The notes: generated from the letters alone by a model not told the origin. A stretch of 33,493 nt of DNA from Cellvibrio sp. (GCA_021323495.1 JAJQJO010000006.1:1-33493); one strand, 5' to 3'; positions 216 through 20,098 are shown, counted from the first letter of the stretch. Translations and numbers: made by a program.

Positions 216-1370
216 TTACAGCGCAACCGGAAAATTCAAAATTTGTTCGCTTAAGTAATTCTTTAAATTGCGCAGCAATAATTCATTTTGGTACTGGTGG
301 CCGATGCTCACCCGGATAAATGATTCATACCCTACTCCCCGCCAGGCCTTGACCATCACATTTTGGGATAACAGATAATTAGCGACTTTAATTGAAGGCG
401 CTTCTATATCGATAAACAGAAAGTTGGTTGATGAAGGTGCTACTGCAATACCCCAGGACAAAATCTCATCGCGCATCCGGTCCTTTTCGCTGACGGTGAA
501 TTGAACGGTTTTTGCCAGATGTTGCTGGTCGTCCAGGGATTGTATCGCAGCAATCTGGGCCAACCTGTTTACGTTGTAAGGTGTCCTCACGCGATTTAAT
601 AAATTCGTTATGGTGCTATGGGAACAAATACCGTAGCCAACGCGCATTCCAGCGAGGCCATAGGCTTTGGAAAAAGTCCTGAGTACTATCCAGGGACGCT
701 CCTGGTTTTGCAGGATCTCGAACACGCGCGGGAATTCAGGTTCATGCGCTGCATATTCAACATAGGCTTCGTCGATCACAAGCAAGGTGTCGGATGGACA
801 AGCATTTACCATTAACGATAGTTCGGTGTGCGTTAAACTACAGCCTACCGGATTAGATGGATTTGCGAGCATCAGTATTTTTAACTGGTGCAGTGACCTG
901 AGTGTCTCCAACCAGCGGGTTGCGTTGAAATTTAATGCAGAATCGATAGGCACTTCGATCACTTCGGCATCCATCATTGCGGCATAAATATGGTGCAAAC
1001 TAAAAGTCGGTTTCGGAATCAATACCTTATCCCCGACATTGATAAATACTTTGCAGATGAGTGAGAGGATATCTTCCGATCCGTTGCCGGCAATAATCCG
1101 CTCCGGCGCTACACCGAGTTTTTCGCCCAACTTTTCGCGCAAATAAAAACAATCACCATCGGGATAGATGGCGCCCGTCTGGACAGCCACCTGCAAAGCG
1201 GCGAGCGCCCTGGGGCTCATACCAAAAGGATTTTCATTCACCGATAGATTATGGATTACACGCGGATTATCACTGCTACTAAATCTATCGATGCTAATAC
1301 CGGCATCGTAGGTAGGCAAATTGCGGACGCTCCGGCGCGCCTTTGATAACAAATCGAGATCGAGATCCAT
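216..1370 (-). CDS. HisC-like (histidinol-phosphate aminotransferase family) PLP aminotransferase; last gene of the biosynthetic operon
   Basis: Motifs NENPFG, YPD, GNGSEDIL, NPSNPVG, VIDEAY and RTFSKAYGLAGMRVGY (PLP Lys). No other his genes are nearby. Confidence 0.9.
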   Translation of the reverse strand: MDLDLDLLSKARRSVRNLPTYDAGISIDRFSSSDNPRVIHNLSVNENPFGMSPRALAALQVAVQTGAIYPDGDCFYLREKLGEKLGVAPERIIAGNGSEDILSLICKVFINVGDKVLIPKPTFSLHHIYAAMMDAEVIEVPIDSALNFNATRWLETLRSLHQLKILMLANPSNPVGCSLTHTELSLMVNACPSDTLLVIDEAYVEYAAHEPEFPRVFEILQNQERPWIVLRTFSKAYGLAGMRVGYGICSHSTITNLLNRVRTPYNVNRLAQIAAIQSLDDQQHLAKTVQFTVSEKDRMRDEILSWGIAVAPSSTNFLFIDIEAPSIKVANYLLSQNVMVKAWRGVGYESFIRVSIGHQYQNELLLRNLKNYLSEQILNFPVAL

Positions 1371-1410
1371 GCTTAACCCTTTTATCTATTTATGTTGTGG
1401 TCGGTCGCTG

Positions 1411-2796
1411 TTAAATATTTTGTTCCGGTACCAATGCGGCAGACGGAGCAGGTTTGGGCGGGCTTGCTTTAACCAGAAATAAAATAAGTTGTAACAGCGC
1501 GGTAACAGCCAGGCCGAGCATTAACCCGTACCACACTCCCTGGATAGAAAGGTCCAATAGATAACATGCGCCCCATGCAGCGGGTAAACCAATTATCCAA
1601 TAACCCAAAATGGAAAGTTGCAACGGACTTTTTACATCGCCAATACCGCGTAAAATACCCAAACCAATATTTTGTCCGGCATCAAACACTTGCAGAAATG
1701 CGGCAATCGCCAGCAGGCTGATTGCCAGGTTGAGGATGGAACTGTTTTGCATTTCCTCTGCGCTCATAAACGGGAACAATACCCAGTGCGGCACAAGCAG
1801 GTAAGGCACAGCAATAATTGCCGTAGCAATGGTGCCCAACCACATGCCTGCAATTCCCAGCTCGCGCGCGCGCAAAAATTTCTGTTGCGCATACGCTTCA
1901 CTGATACAGATAGATGCTGCGGAGGAAATGCCGGCAGAGATCATAAAGGTGATATAGACCAATTGATTGACGACGGTATGCGCGGCTAATTCATGCACAC
2001 CCAGGCTACCGACCAGTAACATCAGCAGGGTAAAAAAACCGGCCTCGGAACCGTAAGTGGCGGCTATAGGTAAACCCATTTTCCAGGTCGCCATTATTGA
2101 TTCGCGGTCAGTCTCCCACCACTTCCAATGAATGTAGGGGCCAAGCACCGGGTGCCTGAGTGCAATAAAAATAAACGCGATAAACGAAAAAATTAATACG
2201 CACAATGTCGTCACCGCGACGCCGATAAAACCGAGTGCGGGCAAGCCCCAGGCACCAAAAATTAATCCGTAGTTCAACAGGATCGTCATGGTTACTGCCA
2301 TCAGGGTGATCATTAATAAAGGGCCGGGCGCTTTTAATCCCACCGAAAAATGGCGGACACTTTGAAACCAGAGGCAAGGCAACATCCCGAGTGCAACTAT
2401 GGTCAGATAGTCCACAGTTTTTGCCGCGACTTCCGGGTCTTGCCCAAGCAACACCAGCGGCGTTTCAAGCAACCCCATTACTACAATAAATACCAATGCG
2501 ACTACGCTCGCCCAGATAAAACTGGCGTTCAACAATTTTGGAATGGCTGCGTAATCCTTGCGCCCTGCTGCGCCCGCCACCAGATTACCGGTGGCCGTCA
2601 CTAATCCGGTGCCCATAGTGCGCAGCTGGTTAAATAGCGCAATGGCAAGGCCACCGGCGGCCAGGTCAAGTGCGCTCAATGTGCCGAGCATAACCAGGTC
2701 AACAGTCGCGATGGCGACATAAGCAAAATTGGTTAATATCAACGGCACTGCAAGTTTGCCGATCGTGCGGGAGTGCGTTACATATATTGCTGGCAT
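1411..2796 (-). CDS. MATE family efflux transporter (461 aa)
   Basis: About 12 hydrophobic segments; motifs KLAVPLIL, DLVMLGTL, GLPIA..SEAGFF, FDAGQ..GILRGIGD. Start moved from 2940 to ATG 2796, which follows an AGGA RBS and avoids overlap with the upstream gene. Confidence 0.92.
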   Translation of the reverse strand: MPAIYVTHSRTIGKLAVPLILTNFAYVAIATVDLVMLGTLSALDLAAGGLAIALFNQLRTMGTGLVTATGNLVAGAAGRKDYAAIPKLLNASFIWASVVALVFIVVMGLLETPLVLLGQDPEVAAKTVDYLTIVALGMLPCLWFQSVRHFSVGLKAPGPLLMITLMAVTMTILLNYGLIFGAWGLPALGFIGVAVTTLCVLIFSFIAFIFIALRHPVLGPYIHWKWWETDRESIMATWKMGLPIAATYGSEAGFFTLLMLLVGSLGVHELAAHTVVNQLVYITFMISAGISSAASICISEAYAQQKFLRARELGIAGMWLGTIATAIIAVPYLLVPHWVLFPFMSAEEMQNSSILNLAISLLAIAAFLQVFDAGQNIGLGILRGIGDVKSPLQLSILGYWIIGLPAAWGACYLLDLSIQGVWYGLMLGLAVTALLQLILFLVKASPPKPAPSAALVPEQNI

Positions 2797-2842
2797 GATT
2801 GAAATTCCTGCGTAATTTTCCGCTTGTTCTTGATACATATGA

Positions 2843-2888
2843 GGATAGAAAAACTTTTGGATAGAAAAACATCTGGATAAAAAATTCA
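2843..2888. repeat. Degenerate 16-bp tandem repeat, about 3 copies (GGATAGAAAAAC...)
   Basis: ggatagaaaaactttt / ggatagaaaaacatct / ggataaaaaattca in the spacer between the OCD-like and MATE genes. Confidence 0.75.
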
Positions 2889-2896
2889 CCAATGAT

Positions 2897-3883
2897 TTAC
2901 CAAAGCTGTACCTCTTGCCCGATCCCAGCGCGCCGGGCATGTTCAGCCGTTATCCGGCCGAGCGCGACGTCGGTAATTATCATTCCACTGTTGTACGCGA
3001 ACACAATTTGCGCATCGTTGATGCGCCCTGGTTTTTCGCCGTTAAGGATTTGCGCCAGCTCCGCATTGACGGCGGGAATATTGCCGTTCCCATCCACCAT
3101 ATCGGCGCTGGTGACTTTCATTTGCTGTTCATCGGTAGCGACAATGTAGTCCGCTTTATGCAGCACCTCTGGCTCAACGCCGTAGCCCACCAGGATGATA
3201 AGTGCACCGGGTTTTAACCAGTGGTGCGGAATAGATTCGCGCGCAGAACGGCCGGTGACCGCAATAATAATGTCAGCTTCGGCAACACTTTGTTGGAGAT
3301 TGGCCGAGCGGACAATATGGCGCTCGGGATAATAACGACGCAGGTTTTCTTGCGCGCTGTTAATACCTGCTTCATGGCTGCCATGCATGATTAATTTTTC
3401 CAGCGATGGCATGGCAGTAACCAGCATTGGCAATGCAATTTGCCCTTGCGCACCGGTGCCGACCACCAGCGCAGTTGTTGCACCTTTTCTCGCTGACATT
3501 TTCGCAATCAATGCCGAGGTCGCCGAGGTGCGCAGCGGCCCCAGTTGTTGCACATCCATCAACGCCAGTGGCTGCCCCGTTGCATCATCAAGAATAAAAA
3601 TAAATGAATAAAACTGATAGCGGTTGCGCGAGCGATCTGAATCGTACTCGTACACTACTTTGAACCCGACACTTCTGGAGGCGGCATCGCGCCCCGCCAT
3701 ACTGTAGGCAATGGAATGTTTATCCACCGGCTCCAGGATAACTTTCAGCGGGTTTGCTGAATCCGGGTCAGCGAGCGACAGGAAGGCTTGCTGCACAATG
3801 TCCAGGATTCCTGGCAAAGGAATATCCAGCTGCGATAACGCCTGCTGGTTCAAAATCAATAAAGAATGTTGTTGCGCGGTCAT
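2897..3883 (-). CDS. Ornithine cyclodeaminase/mu-crystallin family protein (SbnB-like NAD(P)-dependent enzyme)
   Basis: GFKVV, LDDATGQPLALMD, LRTSATSA, Rossmann motif VVGTGAQG and C-terminal NSGMIITDVALG. Confidence 0.9.
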   Translation of the reverse strand: MTAQQHSLLILNQQALSQLDIPLPGILDIVQQAFLSLADPDSANPLKVILEPVDKHSIAYSMAGRDAASRSVGFKVVYEYDSDRSRNRYQFYSFIFILDDATGQPLALMDVQQLGPLRTSATSALIAKMSARKGATTALVVGTGAQGQIALPMLVTAMPSLEKLIMHGSHEAGINSAQENLRRYYPERHIVRSANLQQSVAEADIIIAVTGRSARESIPHHWLKPGALIILVGYGVEPEVLHKADYIVATDEQQMKVTSADMVDGNGNIPAVNAELAQILNGEKPGRINDAQIVFAYNSGMIITDVALGRITAEHARRAGIGQEVQLW

Positions 3884-3904
3884 ACATCGTGTCCTTGTTG
3901 CGTA

Positions 3905-5158
3905 TCAGGCTTTTGCCAAAGGGAATATTGGTATCGCAGACAATTCGGGATAATGGATTTCAGCCGCGCACTCTTGGTCGGGGCGTTCCAGGGCATCGAG
4001 TAGTGATTCAATTTCAGCCGTCACACTGTCATCGAGCAGGGAATGTTTTTTCATCCATTCATCGTTATAAACGGTGTCCAGATATTTTTCGCCCGCATCG
4101 CAAATCACTACCACAATGTTGCTGTTTGCCGGTGCACGGCTCAGCTCCAGCAAGGCCTGGTAAATTACGCCGCCGGCGGAACCGCCCACCATTAGCCCTT
4201 TTCGTTTTGCCAAAATCCGCGCGGTGAGAAACGCGTATTGGTCAGTGACTTTCAGGCCCTTGTCGATCAGGTCGTACTCAATTAATTGGCCGATCTCGGC
4301 GCCCTCCGGGGTTCCGGTGCCGGATTGCAAATAGGCTTTGCCCGGCCCACCAAAAATAATTGAGCCTTCGGGTTCAACGCCGATTATTTGTGGCCGCGCA
4401 CCTTTGTGTTTCAGCGCTTTAGCGGTACCGCAGAGCGAACCGCCCGTGCCCACCGCACCGACCAGGTGAGTAAGGCCATCGCCGAGTGTTGCGTAAATTT
4501 CTTCAGCCATCGGGTAATAGCCACGGCTATTGGCAGGGTTGTGATGTTGGGCAGTCCAGACTGCACCGTAATTTTTTGCAAGTTCTGCGGCGGTTTCATC
4601 GCGTGCGGCGGTGGCAAGTTCTTCGTCGCCGGCAGCGCTAATACAAATAACCTCTGCGCCGAGGGCACGCATCATCCTGATTTTGTCTTGCGCTGCATGA
4701 TTGTCGACCACGGCGGTAAAGCGGTAGCCACGTTCGGCAGCAATTAATGCCAGGGCCACGCCGGTATTACCCGAGGTGGACTCTACAATCCAGCCGCCCG
4801 GTTTTAGCAATCCCGATGATTCGGCTTCATCAACCATTTGTTTTGCCATGCGGATTTTTACGCTGCCGGTCGGATTGTTCTGTTCCAGTTTGACCAGCAG
4901 TCGGCAATGATTTGCGGTGGTAACCAATTCAAAAAATGCGCAGCCTCCAATATCATCGGAGACACGCGTAATAACCGGTACCTTTTGTGCATTTGTATGT
5001 AATGAATTTGTGTGTAGTGAATTCGTTTGTAGTGAATTGGTGTGTAGTGAATTGGTGTGTAACGCATTTGACGGCGCAGTTGATGTTGCACTGGATAATG
5101 TATTGGATAACGTATTGGATGATGTATTGGATAACATATTAGATAGCACAGTAGTCAT
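3905..5158 (-). CDS. Cysteine synthase family PLP beta-replacement enzyme (SbnA/AesA-like) with a low-complexity N-terminal extension
   Basis: KLEQNNPTGSVKIR (PLP Lys), ESTSGNTG, QHHNPAN, GAVGTGGS, GGSAG, DAGEKYLDT. GGAG RBS upstream of ATG 5158. Confidence 0.92.
   Translation of the reverse strand: MTTVLSNMLSNTSSNTLSNTLSSATSTAPSNALHTNSLHTNSLQTNSLHTNSLHTNAQKVPVITRVSDDIGGCAFFELVTTANHCRLLVKLEQNNPTGSVKIRMAKQMVDEAESSGLLKPGGWIVESTSGNTGVALALIAAERGYRFTAVVDNHAAQDKIRMMRALGAEVICISAAGDEELATAARDETAAELAKNYGAVWTAQHHNPANSRGYYPMAEEIYATLGDGLTHLVGAVGTGGSLCGTAKALKHKGARPQIIGVEPEGSIIFGGPGKAYLQSGTGTPEGAEIGQLIEYDLIDKGLKVTDQYAFLTARILAKRKGLMVGGSAGGVIYQALLELSRAPANSNIVVVICDAGEKYLDTVYNDEWMKKHSLLDDSVTAEIESLLDALERPDQECAAEIHYPELSAIPIFPLAKA
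4988..5062 (-). repeat. 15-bp in-frame tandem repeat, 5 copies, encoding L(H/Q)TN(S/A)
   Basis: Protein reads LHTNS-LHTNS-LQTNS-LHTNS-LHTNA; DNA unit is approximately tgtagtgaattggtg on the + strand. Confidence 0.9.
5093..5146 (-). repeat. 12-bp in-frame tandem repeat, about 4.5 copies, encoding LSNT-like units
   Basis: Protein reads LSNM-LSNT-SSNT-LSNT-LS; DNA unit is approximately ttggataacgta on the + strand. Confidence 0.85.
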
Positions 5159-5191
5159 GACTAACTTTTCTCCTACCGATTGAGTTGTTAT

Positions 5192-6637
5192 TTATAAGTT
5201 GGAATCCAATTGCCAATGGACTTCATGGTCGTCAAACCACATGGCAACCTTGGGAATAATGGGAAGGCTATGAAAACAGGATTCATTGGAATCCATCTGG
5301 TAACCCGCCGTGTTGGGATACACCAGGACATCGTTAATGGCAGGCCTGGCGGTGAAGGGAATTTTTCGCCAGCTCACCATATCGCACTCAAGGCAACTAC
5401 TGCCCGCGATTGCCGTGGGGAAAATATGTGGCGATGCAAGGTCATCACCATTATTTTTTAGCAGCGACGGCGAAGGCAAAAATTCACTTCCAAACCATTG
5501 CTCTGATAATGAAAAACTCATGCCCGCAACAGTGGCAATCCAATAGTGATGCCCGGTATCAATCAGCTTTACGCCCTGGATATTAAATATCGACACTCCG
5601 GCCTGGTCTAATAAAGCGCGGCCGGGTTCCAGTGCTAATTGAATTTGGTTTTCGCGCAGCTGTTGCGCAAGTGAATAATGCGAGGAGGTCGGTGTCGATA
5701 AGAATAAATCCAGCGCAGCGGACGGATGCAGTTCATTGCCGTAGGGATAAAAACCATCCCTGAAAATTTGTGCGCGATGAAAATGTTCCGCCGCCAACGA
5801 ATTCTGGAATTGCATCCAGTTATCGGTAGATGTGTACTTGACTGGCAACCCACCGCCAATATTGATTTGGTTACAACTGGAAAAACCGCGTTCGCGCGCA
5901 GCGATAATCCATGTCACTAATTCATGGGTTACGGCGGAGCGCCGGGGTATATCGTATCCGGACAAATGGAAACTGAAGCCCACCAGGGTTATGCGCTGTT
6001 GATAAGCTTGCAGGAGGTTCAAGGCAGCGGATAACTGCGCACCGGTAAGCCCAAAACGGCTATTGGTTTCGCACGCAGGTTGAAAGCGTAAGCTAATTTT
6101 TGGCTTGGGCAATCGGGCGTGCGGCAGGTCAACATTGGAACCCTCGTCCATCCCTGCCAGGCTGATTATGTTGTGCAACTCTTCGATGCTATCAATCGCA
6201 ATCTGCGCGCCCTGGAAAATAGCCAATTGCAACAATGCCATTTCCTTTTGAGGGCCGGACACACCGATGCAATCCCCGCGGATACCGGCGGCCAGGGCTA
6301 ATTCCAACTCTTGTTTGCTGGCGACATCAATACCAATGCGGGCCTCCCTGCATGCCCGGGCAAACGAGTGCGCCTTGTTGGCTTTTTTAGCGAAGAAAAT
6401 ATTCGCGTTTAATTGATGCTTATTGAGCACTGCCTGGATACCCGCAATATTTTCGGAAAATTGTTGGGGAAATACGCAATGCAGCGGCGACCCGATGCCC
6501 TTGACCAATTCAAAAATTTTTCCCGGATGGCGCAACTTCAACAGGCGGGTATATTTACCTTCCAGCGCCGGCAAATCCGGATATGCAAGCGAGGGAGAAA
6601 GAGATTGCTGCGCGCGCGGTTCTTGCTGGGCCGTCAT
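5192..6637 (-). CDS. Type III PLP-dependent decarboxylase (diaminopimelate/ornithine decarboxylase superfamily; Y4yA/SbnH/AesB-like)
   Basis: FFAKKANK (PLP Lys), IDVAS, SRFG, FHLSG, INIGGGL, EPGRAL, SCLECD, NTAGYQMD. Start overlaps the upstream permease stop (ATGA). Confidence 0.9.
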   Translation of the reverse strand: MTAQQEPRAQQSLSPSLAYPDLPALEGKYTRLLKLRHPGKIFELVKGIGSPLHCVFPQQFSENIAGIQAVLNKHQLNANIFFAKKANKAHSFARACREARIGIDVASKQELELALAAGIRGDCIGVSGPQKEMALLQLAIFQGAQIAIDSIEELHNIISLAGMDEGSNVDLPHARLPKPKISLRFQPACETNSRFGLTGAQLSAALNLLQAYQQRITLVGFSFHLSGYDIPRRSAVTHELVTWIIAARERGFSSCNQINIGGGLPVKYTSTDNWMQFQNSLAAEHFHRAQIFRDGFYPYGNELHPSAALDLFLSTPTSSHYSLAQQLRENQIQLALEPGRALLDQAGVSIFNIQGVKLIDTGHHYWIATVAGMSFSLSEQWFGSEFLPSPSLLKNNGDDLASPHIFPTAIAGSSCLECDMVSWRKIPFTARPAINDVLVYPNTAGYQMDSNESCFHSLPIIPKVAMWFDDHEVHWQLDSNL

Positions 6638-8133
6638 TGGCGTGATACCTCGATACTGTTATTCAGCCTGAATCCTGCCATCAACACTAGCGCGGCCATC
6701 AATACATTAATAAACAGCACGCCCAACAGGAACAAGCCTGAATTGACGACGCCGGATTGCGCATCCTTATGCTCGGCCAAAGCAAAGCGTGGCTGTGTGT
6801 CGAAATCAGCAAAGGTAACCGGGGTTTGGCAGGTAGCGCACACATTGAAATCACCCCGCTCGTTTGCGGCAATTATCTTTTGTTGGAAGTAATGCCTGAG
6901 TGCCCGATGATGCGCTTCAACGCGCTGCAAAAAATCTCGCTGCTGTGCCAACCCATTGCCAGAAACCGTGATCAACGATTGATAAAAAAGGCTCGCAGGT
7001 GACAACCATTTCAGTCGGTTGCCGATACGGTATTGCGCATCCAATTGCGTGGAAAATTCTTGTTCCAACCCGCGCATGGATTTTTCTATTGCATCAATTT
7101 TGGCGATTTTTACCAGCGCATAATCCTGGCTCGAGGCTTGGTGTTGCGCTAATTCCGGATGGTCCTGGAAGAAACCGGCCAGGGTTTTTTCAGAATTACG
7201 CTCAACCTGGTCAGTAGCGGTGCGCAGGTCATTAATGTAGGTTATGCGCGATGGAAGCGGTGCGAGGAAATTGACCAATGTATTGCTGACCATTGGTATC
7301 GCCACTGCAAGCAGCAGCCAACAGGCAACCAATACCGTTGCGTTGTGCGCGGGTGATTTTCCTTTTGCTATGCACCAGGCCGACAGCAGGATCCAGAACA
7401 GGCTGTAAGCGCCGATCATCAAGAGCACGCCAGCCACTTGCAGCAGGAAACCAATATCCACATCTTTATGCATCAGTGCCGGACTGCCAATCAACCACAA
7501 CCCGGTGATCAATAAAACAGGAAGAAGTACCAGCCCGGTGCGGGTGGCCAATTGCAACAGCAATAAACGCGTGGGCGATAACCCCTGGACTATCAGCAAT
7601 TTTAATTGGTCACGCTCACGCTCTTGTGCAACAGCATTAAAATTTATCGTGATCAATAACAGCGGTAAAATAAATACCAGGAAATAACAAAGGTCAAATT
7701 GGCCCACTGCGCGCACTAATGGATGTTCAGTATTTTTCTCTTGCAGCACCGCTTGTTTGGTATCAACTTGCATGCGAAAAAAATACGGGTATAAATCGCT
7801 TTGCCCGATAGCGAGCGGAGCCAATAGCGAAGGCGGTTTCACCGCGTAATCCACCATTAAATAAAATGCATAACCGCGCACATCGGCAACATCATCCCAC
7901 CAATTGCGCGGGGTTTTATGCGCGCCGCGTTGCTGTAGTTCCGCCCTCGCCTTTTCAATAGCTTGCTGTTGCTCATTGGCAATTTTATTAATGGTGCGCT
8001 GCTGTTCATTTACCCGCTCCTGCCCATTAAACAGCCCCAACAACGTCAGCCCACTGGCAACCAGCACTAGCAGTAGTGCCATACGTTCGCGGTAGAGATT
8101 AAGGAACTCGTGGTAAATAATTGTTTTTATCAT
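6634..8133 (-). CDS. ABC-2 type transporter permease with a large extracytoplasmic domain (DUF3526-like)
   Basis: N-terminal TM helix, soluble loop, then FDLCYFLVFILPLLLI..FNAVAQERERDQLKLL (ABC-2 signature), further TM helices and LSPASL. ATGA coupling at both ends. Confidence 0.85.
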   Translation of the reverse strand: MIKTIIYHEFLNLYRERMALLLVLVASGLTLLGLFNGQERVNEQQRTINKIANEQQQAIEKARAELQQRGAHKTPRNWWDDVADVRGYAFYLMVDYAVKPPSLLAPLAIGQSDLYPYFFRMQVDTKQAVLQEKNTEHPLVRAVGQFDLCYFLVFILPLLLITINFNAVAQERERDQLKLLIVQGLSPTRLLLLQLATRTGLVLLPVLLITGLWLIGSPALMHKDVDIGFLLQVAGVLLMIGAYSLFWILLSAWCIAKGKSPAHNATVLVACWLLLAVAIPMVSNTLVNFLAPLPSRITYINDLRTATDQVERNSEKTLAGFFQDHPELAQHQASSQDYALVKIAKIDAIEKSMRGLEQEFSTQLDAQYRIGNRLKWLSPASLFYQSLITVSGNGLAQQRDFLQRVEAHHRALRHYFQQKIIAANERGDFNVCATCQTPVTFADFDTQPRFALAEHKDAQSGVVNSGLFLLGVLFINVLMAALVLMAGFRLNNSIEVSRQ

Positions 8134-9558
8134 GCTGTTCCCTCACTGGATAATTGGCGAATTGCCACACCACTTGCCACCAGCATAAATACCGCCCAGA
8201 TGCCAATACTGCGCAGCGCACTGGTGTAACTGTCAATCACTTGCGGCAGCGCAGGTGGTTGGTAAGAAAATTCGGGGATGGTGTCCCACAGCTGTTTATC
8301 ACCCAAGTGATTCGCGTCTTTATGGTCGCGCACGTCTGCGTTTAATGTTTGCATCAAGCCACGGCGATATTGTTCAGCGGCCGAGGTAAACAATTGGTGG
8401 TGGCGCCAATCAGTGGTAGCCAAGGCCGATGAAATCACCTGGAGCGCAATTAAGGGCGATAGCACTGCGAGTTGCTGATAGGTTTCATCTTGTAACTTCA
8501 GCTGTTGGGTGTGCTGTGAAAAAAGTTTGTCAAACACTTTATCGCTGTAACTTTCGCCGAAGAGTAATTCAGCACCGGCCCAGTTAAATGGCAGGTCGCT
8601 GATGTTGGTCACCCGGTATTGGTTGAGCGTGTCTTGTTTGTATTGCTCGATTGCGGCTAACCGATCCGGCGTGTAGAGATCGGATTCCATGCGTGAATAA
8701 AATTCCTGGGTGGATATACCGGGATAAGTATTTGCAGCTATATCAATTGCCAGCTTGGGAATTATCAATGAGGTGACGGCCCAGAAAATGAGCAGCACCG
8801 TCAAGGATTGCCGCGCTGTTTTGGTAACCATGGAAACTGCCAGGGTGAGCAATATCCAAAAAATAACGTAGCCAAGATAGGGTGAGCAATATCCAAAAAA
8901 TGACGTAGCCAAAATAAAGCAGCCCCATACCGATTAACCGATAGGAATCCAGATCGCCGTTGGTAAATAACATCAAGCCACAATAGGCAGTGACCGGGAG
9001 CAGGAATAACAAGGAGAACGACAAGAGCGCGGCCGCTTTTTGCAAAAATAATTGCCGCGGTGTTTTGCCGGACAATAACAACATGCGTAAGGTGCCCTGC
9101 TCGCGCTCAGCGGCAAAAAAACCAAAACCGCAGAGGATGACAAACAGCGGCAACAACAATTGCAATATAGCGGCCGGATTCAAAGTGCCCAGCCGCTGTA
9201 ATTCAATGGAATCCTGGCTATTGGCAAAAACCGGGGTATTGCGTTTGTGGGCTTCAAGGAAAAGTACATCGCCCAGATAACCGCTGGCACCCGGATCTAT
9301 TACCGCAAGTGGTGTTTCCGGTTTAAAAAGATAAACACCGTAGTGTGCCGCCGAATGTGGATTTTTTTCGCCCTGGTTAAGCCAGCGGTCGCGCTCTGCA
9401 ACCTGGGTCTGGGTTTTTAATAATTGCGCTTGCTGGTATTGGTAACTACTGGACGCGATGCCCAACAGCATCATGGTAAACAAGGTGAGCAGTAGCCATA
9501 CCAGCCGGCCATCGCGCCGGAACAGCAACCACTCTTTTTGAAAGGATGCCATCAACAT
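8130..9558 (-). pseudogene. Second ABC-2/DUF3526-type permease, split by a frameshift (ORF-track pieces 8743-9558 and 8130-8912)
   Basis: The N-half (NPHSAAHYG, AEREQGTLRMLL) and C-half share the duplicated peptide GYVIFWILLTL. Removing one 37-bp copy gives 1429-37=1392 nt, an intact 463-aa ORF. Confidence 0.88.
8842..8915. repeat. 37-bp direct tandem duplication (2 mismatches) causing the frameshift
   Basis: 8842-8878 agggtgagcaatatccaaaaaataacgtagccaagat versus 8879-8915 agggtgagcaatatccaaaaaatgacgtagccaaaat. Confidence 0.95.
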
Positions 9559-10304
9559 ACTTCAGCTTCCCGGCATTGTTGCAAATAGGTTTGTTCAAGA
9601 TCGATTTCATTTATTAATTCACTGCCGATCGAGCGCACGATTTTTCCGCTGTTATAAATCGAGATGCGGTGTGCGTCTTCCTGGGCGCGGAACAGGTCAT
9701 GGGTGGCCATCAGGATCGCGCTGCCCTGGGCTGCTAATTCCTTGATCAGTTGGCTGAATTCGTAGCTGGCGGAAGGATCAAGCCCCGATGTGGGTTCATC
9801 GAGGATCAACGCTTTGGCATTTTTTGCGAGCGCCACGGCGATACCAACTTTTTGCCGCATCCCCTTTGAATAGGTGTTGACGCGGCGATGGATAGCACCC
9901 GGTTGCAACTGGACGCGCTCGAGGATTCCGGTGAGCTCACCTGCGCTGCGGACATGGCCCGCTAGCCTGGACAAGTAATCCAGGTTTTCATAACCCGTCA
10001 GCTGCGGATAGAGCGCCACCTGCTCGGGAATATAGGCGAGTTGCGCGCGGGCATCCGGCTTGTGCGTAACCGTATCGAACCCGGCTACCTCAATCCGCCC
10101 CGCGTCCGGATGCAAAAAACCGAGCACACAATTCAGGGTCGTGGATTTACCGGCACCATTCGGCCCCAGCAATGCATGTATCTCGCCTGCATTAACCGTG
10201 AGATCTATCTGGTCCACAGCAGTCACTGCCCCGAATCGTTTACTGACTCGAGTGACCGAGATAACCGGTCGATCCAGGTTTTTCATGGTGCCCAAGCTAT
10301 TCAT
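9552..10304 (-). CDS. ABC transporter ATP-binding protein
   Basis: Walker A GPNGAGKST, signature YSKGMRQK, Walker B LILDEPTSGLD, H-loop ATHD. AAGGA RBS. Confidence 0.95.
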   Translation of the reverse strand: MNSLGTMKNLDRPVISVTRVSKRFGAVTAVDQIDLTVNAGEIHALLGPNGAGKSTTLNCVLGFLHPDAGRIEVAGFDTVTHKPDARAQLAYIPEQVALYPQLTGYENLDYLSRLAGHVRSAGELTGILERVQLQPGAIHRRVNTYSKGMRQKVGIAVALAKNAKALILDEPTSGLDPSASYEFSQLIKELAAQGSAILMATHDLFRAQEDAHRISIYNSGKIVRSIGSELINEIDLEQTYLQQCREAEVC

Positions 10305-10367
10305 AGGGAAATCCTTGTTGAAGCTTTATCAAAACGAATGAATTAACAGCTGAAACGTTTTACTTGG

Positions 10368-10390
10368 AAGACGTTATAACATATCATTTT
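10368..10390. promoter_or_regulatory. Putative Zur (zinc uptake regulator) box in the divergent promoter
   Basis: AAGACGTTATAACATATCATTTT matches 16 of 22 positions of the proteobacterial Zur consensus GAAATGTTATA-N-TATAACATTTC (core GTTATAACATAtC). Confidence 0.7.
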
Positions 10391-10402
10391 GTCCTTACAA
10401 GT

Positions 10403-10421
10403 GATATTCGGTCTCATTTGC
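10403..10421. promoter_or_regulatory. Possible Fur box
   Basis: Minus strand GCAAATGAGACCGAATATC matches 12 of 19 positions of GATAATGATAATCATTATC. Confidence 0.35.
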
Positions 10422-10506
10422 AATCTGAAGTGACATTATTTGACGTTGCCCGGATTGGTTCACCGCGCTTGAAAAATTAACCAATCGGAAGGGATAGATA
10501 AAAAGC

Positions 10507-12699
10507 ATGCAACAAATTTATTCAAAGCCCCCGGCAAAAAACGCGGCCATAACGTTTTTACCAGTTTCGTTTTTACCAGTTTCGTTTTTAATCGGGGCGA
10601 TTTTTGTTACGGCCGGGTCAGCCATGGCTGCTGAAAAAAATCAAAACGACCAGGTGATTGAAACACTGCTGGTAATCGGCCAACCCCTGAATAAATCATT
10701 TGAAGCCAATGCCGGCGCATTTGGAGCAAAGGACCTTCTGGAAATACCGATCGTTATCCAAAGTATTAGCGCTGACACTATTGCCAACACCTCCGCGCGC
10801 ACGGCAATCGATGTACTCTCTTTTGATTCTTCGATTTTAAGCGCGTCCTATGGCGGCAGTTTTGATAACTACCGCTTGCGCGGATTTCCGATGGATAACT
10901 TTAATACGGTCCGCAGGGATGGATTAAGCCTCGCACCGCACCATGATTTTGGCTTGGAAAATATTGAACGTATTGATGTGCTTAAAGGCCCCTCAGGATT
11001 TTTATACGGTTTCAATTCACCCGGCGGCACAATCAATTATCTAGTCAAGCGCCCCACCAACGATCCATTTCTCAACCTTAGCCTGCAAGGCACTTCATTG
11101 GAGGGACGTTATGCCGCTGCAGATGCAAGCGCGTCCCTCGCTGATGAAAAATTTGGTTATCGCGTAAATCTGGCTTATGAAAAAAACGGGGATTTTAACC
11201 ATGCACGGGATATGGAACGAAACCTTGCCAGTATCGCAACCGATTTCCGCTTAAGTGAGCGCGCATTGCTGCAGGTCAATGCCGATTGGTCATCCAAATC
11301 GGCCACCGCAGACCCATTGCTGCGCGCCGACCAATCTGCGCGCACCGATCCATTAAATCCTGACTCCTACATCCTTCCGCCAACAATTGATCGACGCGAT
11401 TTATTGACCGGCTCCTGGTATCGCCATGACACCAGGGGCGCAAACATTGAAATGAAATTGGAACTGACATTGGATGACGGTTGGATGTGGATAAGCCAGG
11501 GAAATTATTCCCGGGTAACACGCCATGGCGGCTACACAGATTTATTTTATATCCAGCCCAATGGCGACATTGGATATGCTGACCTGTATAACTCACGCGG
11601 TGAAATTTTTAGCGTAGCCTCATTGCAAACTTATCTTGCCGGCACGTTTTCGACAGGTAGTTTGCACCACGATGTGTTTGTCGGTGCATCCACCAAGGAA
11701 TTTGAAGATGAAAGTCCGTTCTGGGATTTTGTGGAGAGCGCAGGAGACATTGGCATCGAACGTATTTCGGTGGTCAATGTGCTTAACCCTGTCCAGCCAC
11801 CACGCTGGGATTTCGGTCCAAAGCAACCGATAGAATATCGCGCAACTATAAAAGAGCACTCCATTTTTGCGAGCGATTTGTTATCCATTACTGATGAAAT
11901 TCAATTATTACTCGGTGGGCGGTTTATCGCGTATCGGGCCAAAGAATTATCCGCAGTCGCCCTGCCACAAGAAAAAGATGTGTTCGTACCGACCGGCGCA
12001 TTTATGTTTCATCCAACTGACAAGACTATGGCTTATGTAAGTTATTCGCGTGGATTTGAAAAAGGAGACTACGCTCCGTTTTATGCCAACAATGCCAATC
12101 AACCCACTGATACGATTGAATCGGAGCAATATGAAACGGGTTTTAAAATCAAAATAAGTAATGACGTAAGCGCGGGAATAGCCATTTTTGATATTCGCCG
12201 CAACGCCAGTTACGTCAATTTAAACAATGATTTTGTTAGCGACGGCGAATATAACCATCGCGGGATTGAAGTGAACCTGACCGGGGAAATTGCGCAAGGA
12301 TTTTCATTGGCTGCCAACGCGGCTTATCTATCAACCGAGCTCAATGATGTGGTTGATCCATCGACCCTGGGTAAACGCAGTGAGGGAGTTCCCGCATGGA
12401 ACGCGGGAATCAGGGCCGGCTATACGCTGACATCCCTGCCCGGCTTATCCATTGATGGAACCATCAGTTATGTTGGCAGCCGTCCCATTGATGCACAAAA
12501 TAGCGGTTTTATTCCCGGCTATACCTTGTTTAACGCAGGCATTAGTTACCAATGGAAATGGGACGACACGCCAGTCAAACTTCGCCTGTACGGAAATAAC
12601 CTTACCGACAAATATTATTACGCGAGCACTTTTTACCAGGGCGGCCTGGAGGTAGGTAAAACACGCGAGCTATTCCTGTCGGCCCATATTGAATTTTAA
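10507..12699 (+). CDS. TonB-dependent outer-membrane (metallophore) receptor
   Basis: Signal peptide ending SAMA, TonB-box-like ETLLVIG, plug motifs YRLRGF and ENIERIDVLKGPSGFLYG..PGGTIN, NLTDKYY, and C-terminal Phe (SAHIEF). Confidence 0.95.
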   Translation: MQQIYSKPPAKNAAITFLPVSFLPVSFLIGAIFVTAGSAMAAEKNQNDQVIETLLVIGQPLNKSFEANAGAFGAKDLLEIPIVIQSISADTIANTSARTAIDVLSFDSSILSASYGGSFDNYRLRGFPMDNFNTVRRDGLSLAPHHDFGLENIERIDVLKGPSGFLYGFNSPGGTINYLVKRPTNDPFLNLSLQGTSLEGRYAAADASASLADEKFGYRVNLAYEKNGDFNHARDMERNLASIATDFRLSERALLQVNADWSSKSATADPLLRADQSARTDPLNPDSYILPPTIDRRDLLTGSWYRHDTRGANIEMKLELTLDDGWMWISQGNYSRVTRHGGYTDLFYIQPNGDIGYADLYNSRGEIFSVASLQTYLAGTFSTGSLHHDVFVGASTKEFEDESPFWDFVESAGDIGIERISVVNVLNPVQPPRWDFGPKQPIEYRATIKEHSIFASDLLSITDEIQLLLGGRFIAYRAKELSAVALPQEKDVFVPTGAFMFHPTDKTMAYVSYSRGFEKGDYAPFYANNANQPTDTIESEQYETGFKIKISNDVSAGIAIFDIRRNASYVNLNNDFVSDGEYNHRGIEVNLTGEIAQGFSLAANAAYLSTELNDVVDPSTLGKRSEGVPAWNAGIRAGYTLTSLPGLSIDGTISYVGSRPIDAQNSGFIPGYTLFNAGISYQWKWDDTPVKLRLYGNNLTDKYYYASTFYQGGLEVGKTRELFLSAHIEF
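10553..10590 (+). repeat. 15-bp in-frame duplication, about 2.5 copies, in the receptor signal peptide (FLPVS-FLPVS-FL)
   Basis: cgtttttaccagttt twice, followed by cgttttta. Confidence 0.85.
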
Positions 12700-12728
12700 A
12701 TCGATGCAGTATGGAATTTAATGCACGC

Positions 12729-13523
12729 TTAATCCGGATTTGGAAGTTCAAGATAAATGCGCTCGATTAATTCCTTACCGTGTTTCCTTTCCAGTTTCCG
12801 TACGATGAAATGGCCCCTGGCCATATCCTGGAAATGGTCGATAAAGATGGTATTAATAATTGCTCCGCCGGCAGCGCCGATGGCGGGTATTGCCTGGGCT
12901 GCGGCTTTTTCAGTTACCTGGATTCCAAATCGCTGCGCAATAGTGGCAATGAATTTAATTAACAGTGGAGCGCCGTCGCTCGCCAGGGTATTGCTCGCAA
13001 TAAATTCTGACGCCGCCGCTATCGATTTTGCCAATGTTGCCCTGACCGCGTAATAGCCGCTGTCGGTACCATCGTCCGAGTTGCTATTGCCACCAAGGGC
13101 AAACACTTCCAGGCAAGCCAACTTGGTTTCCAACGCCGAGATGGATTCACCTTCACTCCTGGCGATATCGGCAATTGAGCGGAGCATGATTGAAGTCGAT
13201 ATAGGCAATTCAATTGATATCGCCGCGATGCCGAAAAAACCTCCGACCCCGCCGCTGACCGCCACACCCAGTTTGTGCCAAATATTGGACGATGCTTCGC
13301 CCGGAATATCCTTCATAGTGAAAACCGCAGCCTCCGAGGCTTTCAGTAGCGCCGCCTGGGTAATTTCACCAATATTTTTACTCCAGCTATCGGGCAATAA
13401 CGCGAGCCCCCGCTCTATCGGCGTGCCGATAAAATTGGTTACCTTTGCAGCGACACCAGGGTTTTCCAACAACCTTTTTGCAACTTGAAGTTCTTGCCTA
13501 TCCTGCTCCGGAAAATGATGCAT
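12729..13523 (-). CDS. EcsC family protein (264 aa)
   Basis: LLENPG..AK, GGVGGFFG, ELPIST.IMLRSIADIARSEGE, CLEVFALGG, GAAGGAIIN..F.DHFQDMARGHF. Start moved to ATG 13523 (MHHFPEQ), which follows an AGGGGG RBS. Confidence 0.8.
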   Translation of the reverse strand: MHHFPEQDRQELQVAKRLLENPGVAAKVTNFIGTPIERGLALLPDSWSKNIGEITQAALLKASEAAVFTMKDIPGEASSNIWHKLGVAVSGGVGGFFGIAAISIELPISTSIMLRSIADIARSEGESISALETKLACLEVFALGGNSNSDDGTDSGYYAVRATLAKSIAAASEFIASNTLASDGAPLLIKFIATIAQRFGIQVTEKAAAQAIPAIGAAGGAIINTIFIDHFQDMARGHFIVRKLERKHGKELIERIYLELPNPD

Positions 13524-13675
13524 ATAAATTTCCCCCTGAACTGTAACCATGCTGACATAGTGCTGTTTGATACGATTGCTGTTGAAATAGTGCCCGGCTG
13601 AGAGCACCCATTCTTTGACCACATAAACCAATTATAGTATCGCCGCCCTGGTCCCTATGAACCCACGGGCGATAC

Positions 13676-13693
13676 ATGACAGGTTTATGACAG
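13676..13693 (-). promoter_or_regulatory. Pho box-like direct repeat (PhoB/OmpR-family site)
   Basis: Minus strand CTGTCAT-AAAC-CTGTCAT with 11-bp period. It points toward the EcsC-family gene, and a TATAAT lies downstream at 13631-13636 (minus). Confidence 0.65.
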
Positions 13694-14381
13694 TCCGCTG
13701 ACGCCTTAATCATCAACAAAAAATATTTAAAAGTTATTTAAACTATTTTTTTTATTGTTTTCCATCAAGAAAAGAAAATCAAAATAATTAAGAATTAAAA
13801 AATCCTTCAATTAATTTATAAAAATTTTTGTTCCGGATTTTCATCAAACTGTTTTCTGTCTGTTATTACGCACGTCGTGTAAATTTTTGTCAAAATTTAT
13901 CCTGTTTTGAAATCGTCTACTAGGCTTTCATAAGTTTCTGCATAACACCACGTCAGGCAATGAGAATAAAAAATCTACCGTGACGACACAAACAGTTTGC
14001 GTAACTGTTTGGACATTGTTTCAGCAGAACTGTAATAAAATACCGGCATGCTCACGCCGAGCCCCTCTAATTACATCGCTCCTGAAATATTGTTTCGGGA
14101 GGTGATACCACTTTTCGCCACGCATCAAGATCGACCCGATCGGGTGCGCGTTCACTATGGTTACTACTTTCACTACCTTCTCTACGCTCACTACTGTAGT
14201 CCCTGCATACATTATTTTTAACAATGGAAATTTGTGGAAGGCGAATCAGCACCCTGGACGTGACTGATCGCTCGCTACGAAAACGCAGGCAGCCGGATAA
14301 ACGTCCGGCTGTAATCTCAATATTGCCTGTGCTGCGGAGGTTGTCTGGCAAATAATTGTCAATGAATGAAGGAGTAGTTTC

Positions 14382-16049: not shown

Positions 16050-16060
16050 CAAAAGAGTCA

Positions 16061-16099
16061 CCTGCCAGGGTTTGGATGCAAGACCATTCCCGGGGCAGG
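16061..16099. terminator. Possible hairpin between the convergent sulfatase and chrA genes
   Basis: cctgcc...ggcagg outer stem with imperfect inner pairing; no clear U tract. Confidence 0.3.
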
Positions 16100-16146
16100 C
16101 TCTTCAACGGATTTATAAATTGGATCAACTGATAAACCAAAATTTA

Positions 16147-18449: not shown

Positions 18450-18452
18450 ATT

Positions 18453-18490
18453 TGTAGATTACGCTATGAATATTAGTTGCGTATTCTACA
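18453..18490. promoter_or_regulatory. Inverted repeat immediately upstream of chrB; candidate ChrB operator
   Basis: TGTAGATTACGC-N14-GCGTATTCTACA (11 of 12 positions symmetric), 3 bp from the chrB ATG. GTAGA...TCTAC ends resemble the ChrB operator as I recall it from Ochrobactrum. Confidence 0.6.
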
Positions 18491-18544
18491 TATAAATAAC
18501 AATTAGCCTAGTCCCTGATTGGAGCTTTACAGCTCACCAACCAG

Positions 18545-18567
18545 AAAACCGATTGATAATCGGTTTT
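18545..18567. promoter_or_regulatory. Palindrome copy 1, upstream of the BlaI-like gene; candidate operator
   Basis: AAAACCGAT-TGATA-ATCGGTTTT. Confidence 0.6.
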
Positions 18568-18620
18568 TTACACCTTAAGCTCCCGACTCCAACAATGGCG
18601 CAAGCACTTCCGAGAGTTTT

Positions 18621-19993: not shown

Positions 19994-20040
19994 TTTTTGA
20001 GCTTGCAGGCTATGGATAACATTGTATTTCTGGCACTTAA

Positions 20041-20063
20041 AAAACCGATCCTGAATCGGTTTT
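20041..20063. promoter_or_regulatory. Palindrome copy 2, at the 5' end of czcC; candidate operator
   Basis: AAAACCGAT-CCTGA-ATCGGTTTT, with arms identical to copy 1. Confidence 0.55.
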
Positions 20064-20098
20064 TAAAACGAAAGTTAACCGGGCTGGGGCGAATTGCC

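What the first reader, a model, noticed from the sequence alone, without database searches (positions are those of the whole stretch)
216..12699. Candidate Gram-negative aminopolycarboxylate (EDDS/EDHA-like) zincophore system: synthesis, export and TonB-dependent re-uptake
Seen: one tightly packed minus-strand operon with ABC ATPase, two permeases, type III PLP decarboxylase, cysteine-synthase-like enzyme, OCD/mu-crystallin enzyme, MATE and HisC-like aminotransferase. It is divergent from a TonB-dependent receptor, with a Zur-like box between. There is no NRPS, IucA/IucC synthetase or nicotianamine synthase, and convergent unrelated genes close the cluster on both sides. Known: SbnA/SbnB/SbnH-type enzymes act in staphyloferrin B synthesis. 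As I recall, the Zur-regulated aesA-D genes for [S,S]-EDDS in Amycolatopsis japonicum, and the related Streptomyces EDHA cluster, use this synthase + decarboxylase + OCD-like + MATE set without an amide ligase. Inference: beta-replacement on O-phospho/O-acetyl-serine by an amino acid, then decarboxylation to an ethylenediamine unit, then reductive condensation with a keto acid would give an EDTA-like chelator. I know of no characterised proteobacterial version with its own outer-membrane receptor.
Basis: partly seen in the sequence, partly recalled or inferred. Interest (0 to 1): 0.9.

Follow-up and report, generated by a model that had tools for sequence, protein, structure and literature searches.

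The report
Zinc-scavenger gene cluster, likely histargin
A soil bacterium carries a complete gene set related to the EDDS/EDHA chelator clusters of actinobacteria, plus an extra aminotransferase and a zinc-repressor-like switch; it likely makes, exports and takes back a zinc-binding molecule built from arginine and histidine, probably histargin, a compound described in 1984 for which I found no reported genes.

Summary
The cluster is real. Its synthase, decarboxylase, reductase and MATE match the cluster of the EDHA producer Streptomyces sp. MA5143a at 54, 41, 41 and 43% identity. It is neither an EDDS nor an EDHA cluster but a third subtype, where a HisC-like aminotransferase replaces the TauD hydroxylase (80 loci: 66 TauD, 10 HisC, none both). 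Against EDHA-type enzymes, conserved columns barely change in synthase (2 of 138) and decarboxylase (0 of 106), but 9 of 89 change in the reductase, most in its predicted substrate pocket. The arginine arm is therefore likely kept and oxaloacetate likely replaced by a keto acid from the aminotransferase. If that is imidazole-pyruvate, the product is C14H25N7O4, the formula of histargin. Zur-like boxes follow this subtype and Fur/IdeR boxes follow the TauD subtype. The receptor and ABC genes copy the layout of Caulobacter znuK/znuGHI. Corrections: permease 1 is split by a 37-nt duplication that five other sequencing runs lack, and Gram-negative aes homologues were already noted in silico in Burkholderia. 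The product, direction of transport and regulation are untested.

The parts
216..1370 (-). HisC-like (subfamily I-beta) aminotransferase, 384 aa; likely supplies the 2-oxo acid (predicted imidazole-pyruvate) for the last step; marker of the subtype
   Evidence: Pfam PF00155; TIGR01141 283.9 bits vs cut-off 276.55; E99, K341 and W343 in 237 of 237 aligned homologues, F123 and H126 in 236 of 237; K341 aligns with the Arg that holds the phosphate in true HisC
1411..2940 (-). MATE transporter, likely exporter of the product (true start probably downstream of 2940)
   Evidence: PF01554; 43% to the MATE of the EDHA producer's cluster, 52-60% to the ten HisC-type loci
2897..3883 (-). OCD/mu-crystallin-family NAD(P)H imine reductase, 328 aa; likely reductive condensation; pocket differs from EDDS/EDHA types (V77, E79, Y89, F91, S93, S120, T122)
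   Evidence: PF02423; model pLDDT 94, best folds Pro-imine reductase 6t3e and SbnB; class-specific columns
3905..5158 (-). PLP beta-replacement enzyme (cysteine-synthase/SbnA fold), 417 aa with a repetitive N-terminal extension; likely joins O-phosphoserine to arginine
   Evidence: PF00291; below SbnA, CysK and CysM cut-offs; 54% to the EDHA producer's synthase; D187 where TauD types have E and EDDS-like types R
5192..6637 (-). Fold-type III PLP decarboxylase (Y4yA family), 481 aa; likely removes the serine-derived carboxyl to give the ethylenediamine unit
   Evidence: PF02784; homologues named Y4yA family; F382 and S450 shared with TauD types, K and K in EDDS-like types
6634..8133 (-). DUF3526 ABC-2-type permease 2
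   Evidence: PF12040, PF12679
8130..9558 (-). DUF3526 ABC-2-type permease 1, split into two ORFs in this assembly (8743-9558, 8130-8912)
   Evidence: one gene of 466-476 aa in relatives
8842..8915 (.). 37-nt tandem duplication that shifts the frame of permease 1; likely an assembly artefact or private to one strain
   Evidence: D5; contigs of runs X2, X3, X5, X6 and X9 (4 studies) bridge the place with one copy
9552..10304 (-). ABC ATPase, first gene of the operon
   Evidence: PF00005
10371..10387 (.). Zur-like operator ACGTTATAACATATCAT, overlapping the predicted -10 hexamer (10382-10387) of the receptor promoter
   Evidence: 10370-10388 matches the tested Caulobacter znuK site at 15 of 19 (hand comparison)
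10400..10418 (.). Weaker Fur-like site; uncertain
   Evidence: 13 of 18 to a recalled consensus; 35 of 1000 shuffles reach it
10507..12699 (+). TonB-dependent receptor of siderophore-receptor type, likely for the zinc complex of the product
   Evidence: TIGR01783 above cut-off; 57-62% to receptors of six HisC-type or broken HisC-type loci, 37-39% to those of TauD-type loci; closest solved structures FemA and BauA

Best explanation
This is an Aes-type cluster of a third subtype that likely makes an ethylenediamine-bridged zinc chelator with one arginine arm and one histidine arm (histargin or a close analogue), likely under Zur repression, and is predicted to export it and recover the zinc complex. 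Inferred steps: (1) the PALP enzyme replaces the phosphate of O-phospho-L-serine with the alpha-amine of L-arginine; (2) the decarboxylase removes the serine carboxyl, leaving N-(2-aminoethyl)arginine; (3) the HisC-like enzyme turns L-histidine into imidazole-pyruvate; (4) the OCD-like enzyme reductively joins the two with NAD(P)H; (5) MATE exports the product, the TonB receptor brings the zinc complex into the periplasm, and the DUF3526 ABC module likely handles the inner-membrane step. Shown: gene content, homology, subtype sorting, residue patterns, operator-like sites. Inferred: every reaction, the metal and the direction of transport. My odds: Aes-type chelator 0.88, zinc-regulated 0.8, arginine-type first arm 0.7, histidine second arm 0.55.
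For: Homology to the EDHA producer's only such cluster. HisC and TauD never co-occur in 80 loci (66 TauD, 10 HisC, 4 neither). HisC types form one clade for reductase (1.00), MATE (1.00) and synthase (0.87), nested among Gram-negative TauD types. Columns conserved in both groups that differ: synthase 2 of 138 (E>D, I>V), decarboxylase 0 of 106, reductase 9 of 89; five lie on strands 71-80 and 90-99 or at their edge, beside invariant K75, and two beside invariant R118. TauD and EDDS-like reductases share S77, a basic residue at 79, Y91, T93 and P120, as expected if both use oxaloacetate; HisC types have V, E, F, S, S. EDDS-like synthases have R187 and decarboxylases K382/K450, fitting an aspartate arm; TauD and HisC types have E or D and F/S. 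The aminotransferase has Phe/Leu as in the aromatic aminotransferase, Glu at the position that contacts the imidazole in HisC, and Lys for the phosphate-binding Arg. The predicted formula C14H25N7O4, 355.1968, equals the listed formula of histargin. Operators sort with subtype: Zur-like 11-14 of 16 in 8 of 8 Gram-negative HisC loci against 9-10 in 9 of 9 Gram-negative TauD loci; IdeR-like 13-17 of 19 in 55 of 55 actinobacterial TauD loci against 9-11 in 5 of 5 actinobacterial HisC loci. In this genome, equal or better Zur scores lie between zur and znuA and before a ZnuD-like receptor. The receptor/ABC layout matches the Zur-repressed znuK/znuGHI.
Against: No product, enzyme assay or expression data. 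Histargin's producer Streptomyces roseoviridis did not appear among the names shown (120 hits, ten clusters), so the link is circumstantial, and histargin's structure is recalled; only its formula and producer were read. The aminotransferase's Phe/Leu pair fits Phe, Tyr or Trp equally, and the window has H127 where 217 of 237 homologues have E. D187 is weak alone: the genome's CysM-like paralogue also has an R-D pair there, and 2 of 14 HisC types have Y. Shared columns between HisC and TauD types partly reflect descent. In the decarboxylase tree the window's subclade (with Thalassomonas and Pseudoalteromonas) does not join the other HisC types, so products may differ within the subtype. The EDDS-like reference loci are unnamed and were assigned by a recalled gene layout. 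A Fur-like site is also present. DUF3526 modules mostly occur without these enzymes (19 of 400 genomes have DUF3526, 3 have the decarboxylase, none both).
Confidence: 0.55

Rival explanations
1. Same pathway and zinc role, but a different product: the aminotransferase supplies an aromatic keto acid (from Phe, Tyr or Trp), or the first arm is lysine or ornithine, giving an undescribed chelator.
For: F123 and L125 match the aromatic aminotransferase tetrad; the reductase pocket gains Tyr and Phe; E187 becomes D, or Y in two loci; the window's subclade is distinct.
Against: Invariant E99 at the imidazole-contacting position and invariant E79 in the reductase suit a polar ring; an imidazole gives a zinc ligand, which fits the Zur boxes; the His/Arg product matches a known natural compound.
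Confidence: 0.27
2. An Aes-type chelator that serves mainly iron or several metals, under Fur or joint Fur and Zur control.
For: Fur-like site at 10400-10418; scores of 13-15 of 18 in 4 of 8 Gram-negative HisC loci; the receptor resembles siderophore receptors; the subtype descends from iron-regulated EDHA types; some actinobacterial HisC loci lie beside FecCD-type importers.
Against: The Zur-like site is stronger against shuffles (4 vs 35 of 1000), overlaps the predicted -10 and is conserved across the subtype; one HisC locus is next to znuA; the genome has a separate hydroxamate siderophore cluster.
Confidence: 0.1
3. The synthase and OCD-like enzyme work as SbnA/SbnB to release diaminopropionate for a ligase encoded elsewhere, or the genes make a non-chelating metabolite, with the aminotransferase acting as a spare HisC.
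For: SbnA and SbnB are the best NCBIfam hits and SbnB a top fold match; an IucA/IucC gene exists on contig C259; the window gene is the only HisC above cut-off in this assembly.
Against: Scores are far below the SbnA and SbnB cut-offs (242 vs 350, 105 vs 327); the IucA gene has its own N-hydroxylase and receptor; IucA-linked relatives form a separate clade and use an octopine dehydrogenase; hisD is also missing from this 79% complete assembly, and 3 of 3 other genomes with the cluster have a separate HisC.
Confidence: 0.08

Closest known systems
EDHA cluster (aesA-D plus TauD-type hydroxylase) of Streptomyces sp. MA5143a and S. scabiei; iron-regulated
   Same: Same four core genes at 41-54% identity; synthase and decarboxylase conserved columns nearly unchanged; no amide ligase.
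   Different: No TauD; added HisC-like aminotransferase; remodelled reductase pocket; Zur-like rather than IdeR/Fur operator; TonB receptor and DUF3526 ABC instead of a family-5 binding-protein importer.
[S,S]-EDDS cluster (aesA-D) of Amycolatopsis japonicum; Zur-regulated
   Same: Same four-gene core and zinc control (PMC9252823); 35-47% mean identity to unnamed Pseudonocardiaceae loci with the bare four-gene layout.
   Different: Those loci have R187 in the synthase, K382/K450 in the decarboxylase, S77/R79/Y91/T93 in the reductase, no aminotransferase, and often a divergent amidase.
Histargin (C14H25N7O4, Streptomyces roseoviridis MF118-A5, carboxypeptidase B inhibitor)
   Same: Formula equals the predicted product; ethylenediamine bridging Arg and His (structure recalled); the HisC subtype occurs in Streptomyces.
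   Different: No gene cluster found in print by my search (one paper, a dereplication table); not described there as a zincophore; producer genome not seen.
Caulobacter crescentus znuK / znuGHI
   Same: TonB receptor divergent from ABC-2 ATPase and two permeases, with a Zur operator over the -10 (PMC4176598); DUF3526 is present in Caulobacter (control).
   Different: No biosynthetic genes were seen beside 20 other DUF3526 modules, and their receptors are at most 22-29% identical to the window's.
Staphyloferrin B (SbnA, SbnB, SbnH) and the IucA-linked Y4xP/Y4yA clusters
   Same: Same enzyme folds; O-phosphoserine chemistry (PMC12414870).
   Different: They need NIS synthetases; the IucA-linked clade is separate in both trees and has an octopine dehydrogenase.
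Staphylopine and pseudopaline (opine-type zincophores)
   Same: Works like them if the prediction holds: histidine-containing aminocarboxylate finished by reductive condensation, Zur control, TonB uptake in Pseudomonas (recalled).
   Different: No nicotianamine synthase above cut-off in the genome; linker would come from serine, not SAM; reductase is of the OCD fold.

Membership tests
Aes-type aminopolycarboxylate clusters | PALP synthase, fold-III decarboxylase, OCD-like enzyme and MATE in one operon | tested here: met
Aes-type aminopolycarboxylate clusters | Core genes homologous to, and grouping with, those of a proven producer | tested here: met
   41-54% to MA5143a locus L041; inside the Aes clade, support 1.00, apart from IucA-linked relatives in the decarboxylase tree and 0.86 in the synthase tree
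Aes-type aminopolycarboxylate clusters | No NRPS or NIS ligase in the cluster | tested here: met
   the genome's IucA/IucC is in another cluster
Aes-type aminopolycarboxylate clusters | Product is an ethylenediamine-bridged metal chelator | not testable with these tools
   needs LC-MS and metal binding
EDHA cluster | TauD-type arginine hydroxylase next to the core | tested here: not met
   absent from the window; present in L041 and 65 other loci
EDHA cluster | Reductase pocket S77, K79, Y91, T93, P120 | tested here: not met
   V, E, F, S, S
EDHA cluster | Iron-repressor operator | tested here: inconclusive
   Fur-like 13 of 18, below the 14-16 of Gram-negative TauD loci
EDDS cluster | Bare four-gene core with synthase R187 and decarboxylase K382/K450 | tested here: not met
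   D187, F382, S450 and an extra aminotransferase; reference loci unnamed, assigned by recalled layout
EDDS cluster | Zur-type operator | tested here: met
   sequence match only
Staphyloferrin B / IucA-linked Y4xP-Y4yA clusters | NIS synthetase in the cluster; SbnA and SbnB family cut-offs | tested here: not met
Opine-type zincophores (Cnt) | Nicotianamine synthase and opine dehydrogenase | tested here: not met
   no PF03059 match above cut-off in the 79% complete genome; neither domain in the window
znuK/znuGHI zinc uptake module | TonB receptor divergent from ABC-2 ATPase and two permeases with a Zur operator between | tested here: met
znuK/znuGHI zinc uptake module | Receptor orthologous to ZnuK; permeases orthologous to ZnuH/ZnuI | not tested
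Housekeeping histidinol-phosphate aminotransferase | TIGR01141 cut-off | tested here: met
   283.9 vs 276.55
Housekeeping histidinol-phosphate aminotransferase | Phosphate-binding Arg (Arg337 in M. tuberculosis) and pocket Tyr (Tyr127) | tested here: not met
   K341 in 237 of 237 and F123 in 236 of 237; mapped through the alignment to 4r2n; several solved HisC-named proteins also have Phe there
Histargin biosynthetic cluster | Present in the producer and yields C14H25N7O4 | not testable with these tools
   producer not among names; formula match only

The most novel reading that the evidence does not exclude
The HisC subtype is the missing biosynthetic cluster of histargin, and histargin is a zincophore shared by actinobacteria and proteobacteria. 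It is a second, independent route to a histidine-containing zinc chelator beside staphylopine and pseudopaline, and arose from an iron-regulated EDHA cluster by swapping the tailoring enzyme, the reductase pocket and the operator. The window would be a version with its own receptor and a ZnuGHI-type ABC module, giving that uncharacterised transporter a candidate substrate.
Probability: 0.45. Interest if true: 0.8.

Novelty: new variant of a known kind. Interest (0 to 1): 0.66.

Why it matters
Few bacterial zincophores have known genes. This finding gives a single mass to look for (m/z 356.204) and named culturable strains that carry the subtype, so a compound from 1984 and an unassigned family of clusters could be linked in one experiment. 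The three-way residue code (synthase 187, decarboxylase 382/450, reductase 77-93) offers a rule to predict products of aminopolycarboxylate clusters that are now all labelled EDDS or EDHA. It also proposes the order of steps in the Aes pathway, and a substrate for DUF3526 ABC transporters. Biodegradable chelators and zinc-protease inhibitors are of applied interest.

Tried and rejected
1) My recollection that EDDS synthesis needs a fumarate-adding lyase: rejected, since the EDHA producer's synthase is a stand-alone 350-aa protein and the lyase is a degradation enzyme (PMC7586795). 2) Link to the IucA/IucC gene on C259: rejected. 3) Spare housekeeping HisC: disfavoured. 4) Permease frameshift as real decay: five runs bridge the place without the duplicate; the best holder X1 has no contig across it and X4 does not cover it, so the source strain itself is undecided. 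5) Expression: RNA run X20 has short contigs on several cluster genes and also at 12655-12828 reaching the neighbouring gene, with a word share of 0.05; this is not evidence of transcription. 6) Finding the histargin producer among homologues: not found. 7) Foreign origin by composition: the cluster is ordinary for its genome (51st percentile of tetranucleotide distance among 82 chunks), although the decarboxylase and receptor were not found in 63 genomes of the genus. 8) Primary papers on EDDS and EDHA (PMID 26636770, 29667664) are not held, so the letter-to-function assignment of aesA-D is not used. 9) PMC13559783 matched only a species name. 10) DUF3526 gave no paper. 11) Earlier findings of this scan: nothing shown. 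12) The structure model confirmed the fold, but I could not measure distances, so pocket membership of residues 77-93 rests on alignment, secondary structure and recalled mu-crystallin and OCD structures. 13) No complex prediction was run, since the open questions concern small-molecule substrates.
Full report
Observation. The window is a whole contig of a 79% complete genome. The nearest named homologues, at 66-71% identity, come from a Cellvibrio metagenome bin, and runs holding the stretch are mostly soil metagenomes. Permease 1 is split by a 37-nt tandem duplication. Of eight runs laid, five from four studies bridge the place with a single copy and none is listed as bridging it with two; the other three do not bridge it. 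The single-copy span would be 463 codons, close to 466-476 in relatives, so the system is probably intact in the population.

Family. A genome scan with a decarboxylase alignment confirmed 531 relatives and kept the best 80. One is Streptomyces sp. MA5143a, which PMC10702961 (passages) names as the EDHA reference with aesA-D; its genome has one match. The window's synthase, decarboxylase, reductase and MATE match that locus at 54, 41, 41 and 43%. IucA-linked relatives carry an octopine dehydrogenase and branch outside the Aes clade in both trees. The genome's own IucA/IucC gene lies with an N-monooxygenase and a FauA/FhuE-like receptor on another contig. No nicotianamine synthase passes its cut-off.

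Three subtypes. Among the 80 loci, 66 have a TauD-type gene only, 10 a HisC-like gene only, none both and 4 neither; three of those four are interrupted or cut by a contig end. The HisC subtype occurs in Pseudomonas, Thalassomonas, Pseudoalteromonas, Microbulbifer, Pollutimonas, Actinoplanes and Streptomyces; three loci repeat the window's gene order with the DUF3526 ABC genes. From 401 Pseudonocardiaceae genomes, 24 matched; I fetched 20 of the 27 places: 16 have the bare four-gene core, 3 are HisC type and 1 is unrelated. Three of three divergent genes tested beside the bare core are amidases, which fits my recollection of the EDDS locus; these loci are unnamed, so 'EDDS-like' is an assignment by layout. 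The subtype is rare: it was not found in 63 genomes of the window's genus, its aminotransferase matched 2 of 250 further genomes of the Streptomyces genus sample at a strict cut-off, and the three decarboxylase matches in 400 sampled Pseudomonadota were 35-37% relatives without an OCD-like gene, two with IucA/IucC confirmed.

What changed between subtypes. I aligned a hand-picked set: 14 HisC (with the window), 18 of the 66 TauD and 18 bare loci; two TauD synthases and three MATEs were dropped by the script's filters or absent. HisC types form one clade for reductase (1.00), MATE (1.00) and synthase (0.87), nested among Gram-negative TauD types. They do not in the decarboxylase tree, where the window groups only with Thalassomonas and Pseudoalteromonas. 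Among columns conserved in both groups, HisC and TauD types differ at 2 of 138 in the synthase, 0 of 106 in the decarboxylase, 4 of 108 in MATE and 9 of 89 in the reductase. Kin are not independent, so this is a description and not a test. The reductase changes S77V, K79E, Q89Y, Y91F and T93S lie on or at the edge of two strands next to invariant K75, and P120S and V122T follow invariant R118. K75 and R118 correspond to carboxylate-binding residues of this fold (recalled). The model has pLDDT 94 and matches imine reductases and SbnB. TauD and EDDS-like reductases share S77, a basic 79, Y91, T93 and P120, as expected if both take oxaloacetate. EDDS-like synthases have R187 (13 of 13) where TauD types have E (16 of 16) and HisC types D (12 of 14), and EDDS-like decarboxylases have K382 and K450 where the other two have F and mostly S. 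The simplest reading is that synthase and decarboxylase build the first arm (aspartate in EDDS, arginine-type in the other two) and the reductase adds the second. L-aspartate as an EDDS precursor and Zur control are stated in PMC9252823 (passages). O-phosphoserine as substrate rests on SbnA (PMC12414870, passages) and on recall for the Aes enzymes.

The aminotransferase. It passes the HisC cut-off narrowly. PMC4703992 (passages) gives the specificity residues of the M. tuberculosis HisC and aromatic aminotransferase. Mapped through the alignment of the Streptomyces homologue to 4r2n, this family has Glu at Asn103/Val86, Phe at Tyr127/Phe110, Leu at Met129/Leu112 and Lys at the phosphate-binding Arg337. 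E99, L125 and K341 are invariant in the 237 aligned top homologues, which were chosen by similarity and not all checked for context. This suits a free amino acid with a polar ring, such as histidine, but does not exclude Phe, Tyr or Trp. Three of three other genomes with the cluster have a separate HisC; here hisD is also unassembled.

Predicted product. Ethylenediamine joined to the keto acids of arginine and histidine gives C14H25N7O4, 355.1968. PMC8825997 (table row and reference) lists histargin with that formula from Streptomyces roseoviridis MF118-A5 and cites the 1984 paper on a carboxypeptidase B inhibitor, which I did not see. The Arg-ethylenediamine-His structure is recalled. The producer's name was not among the homologues shown.

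Regulation and transport. The spacer holds a Zur-like site at 10371-10387. Nine sites in the genome score 13 of 16 or more; they include the zur/znuA spacer and the site before a ZnuD-like receptor, while most of the other six have no evident zinc link. Four of 1000 shuffles reach the score, and the site overlaps a predicted -10. Over 99 of 102 loci (3 dropped for short upstream DNA), Zur-like scores were 11-14 in 8 of 8 Gram-negative HisC loci and 9-10 in 9 of 9 Gram-negative TauD loci, which have Fur-like scores of 14-16 of 18. All 55 actinobacterial TauD loci have IdeR-like sites (13-17 of 19), in line with EDHA being iron-responsive, and 4 of 5 actinobacterial HisC loci have Zur-like sites of 13-16 of 17. 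The consensus motifs are recalled. A weaker Fur-like site also lies in the window. PMC4176598 (passages) shows that Caulobacter znuK and znuGHI have the same divergent layout, are bound and repressed by Zur, and have an operator matching the window's at 15 of 19. DUF3526 modules are general: 19 of 400 sampled genomes have one, none with the decarboxylase; of 20 fetched, 9 have a Zur-like site of 13 or more within about 13 kb, and receptor matches to the window's protein are only 22-29%. The window's receptor instead tracks the biosynthetic subtype, at 57-62% to Pseudomonas, Microbulbifer and Pollutimonas loci, although only 33% to those of Thalassomonas and Pseudoalteromonas, whose enzymes are closest. 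No periplasmic binding protein is in the cluster and ABC-2 folds usually export, so the role of the ABC module is the least certain step.

What is in print. Ten searches were allowed and run; the top listings showed no paper on an aminotransferase-bearing aes cluster, a histargin cluster or a tested proteobacterial member. Burkholderia aes homologues were reported in silico and called EDHA, untested (its Supplementary Figure 1 was not viewed). PMC11387468 (passages) shows such clusters being labelled EDDS by similarity. PMC7586795, PMC8914351, PMC11356490 and PMC13559783 were read as passages. The primary EDDS and EDHA papers are not held and may already list some of these clusters; most subscription journals are outside the library.

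Verdict. A real, coherent member of the Aes-type chelator clusters by gene content and descent, but neither EDDS nor EDHA type: a new variant, likely zinc-regulated, with histargin as the best product guess (0.55 for the full account, 0.88 for an Aes-type chelator).

Noticed in passing
window 4987-5151: The synthase has an N-terminal extension of 12- and 15-nt tandem repeats, partly histidine-containing; a related strain has in-frame deletions of 12 and 93 nt there.
   Followed up: partly
window 10550-10590: The receptor's signal-peptide region holds a short five-residue repeat; run X5 lacks 15 nt there.
   Followed up: no
window 16147-27152: Metal-resistance block: chrB-chrA chromate efflux, a BlaI/BlaR-type regulator pair before a CusCBA-like RND pump, a HupE/UreJ gene and DUF6488.
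   Followed up: no
window 27662-33074: DNA polymerase III alpha, an ImpB/MucB-family gene and an unannotated 264-aa gene, likely an imuA-imuB-dnaE2 cassette.
   Followed up: no
L093 (G000:C259) 5346-17006: Separate hydroxamate-type NIS siderophore cluster with N-monooxygenase, IucA/IucC, ferric reductase and FauA/FhuE-like receptor.
   Followed up: partly
L012 7853-12777 and L011 8012-11414: Agrobacterium/Rhizobium plasmids carry bare aes clusters that group with the EDDS-like clade; L012 has R187, K382 and K450, so it may be a Gram-negative EDDS producer. L011 lacks MATE and follows phosphonate genes.
   Followed up: partly
L110 and L111: HisC-type clusters without MATE and with Tyr at synthase position 187; possibly a fourth product.
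   Followed up: partly
L016, L017, L024, L029, L048, L083: Gram-negative TauD-type clusters with a TonB receptor and Fur-like boxes: candidate EDHA producers; several match a ParB-domain gene that may be an SbnI-like serine kinase (label recalled).
   Followed up: partly
L013 9875-12337 and L064 11310-12059: Broken clusters: L013 stops within the reductase and lacks the later genes in the fetched stretch; L064 has a truncated synthase frame.
   Followed up: no
L096 (G000:C10) 6787: A 14 of 16 Zur-like site near a contig end with no long ORF beside it.
   Followed up: no
L135 (G024:C22) 3296-8931: A genome of the same genus has a Zur-like site (15 of 16), an unrelated TonB receptor and a DUF3526 ABC module without the biosynthetic genes.
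   Followed up: partly
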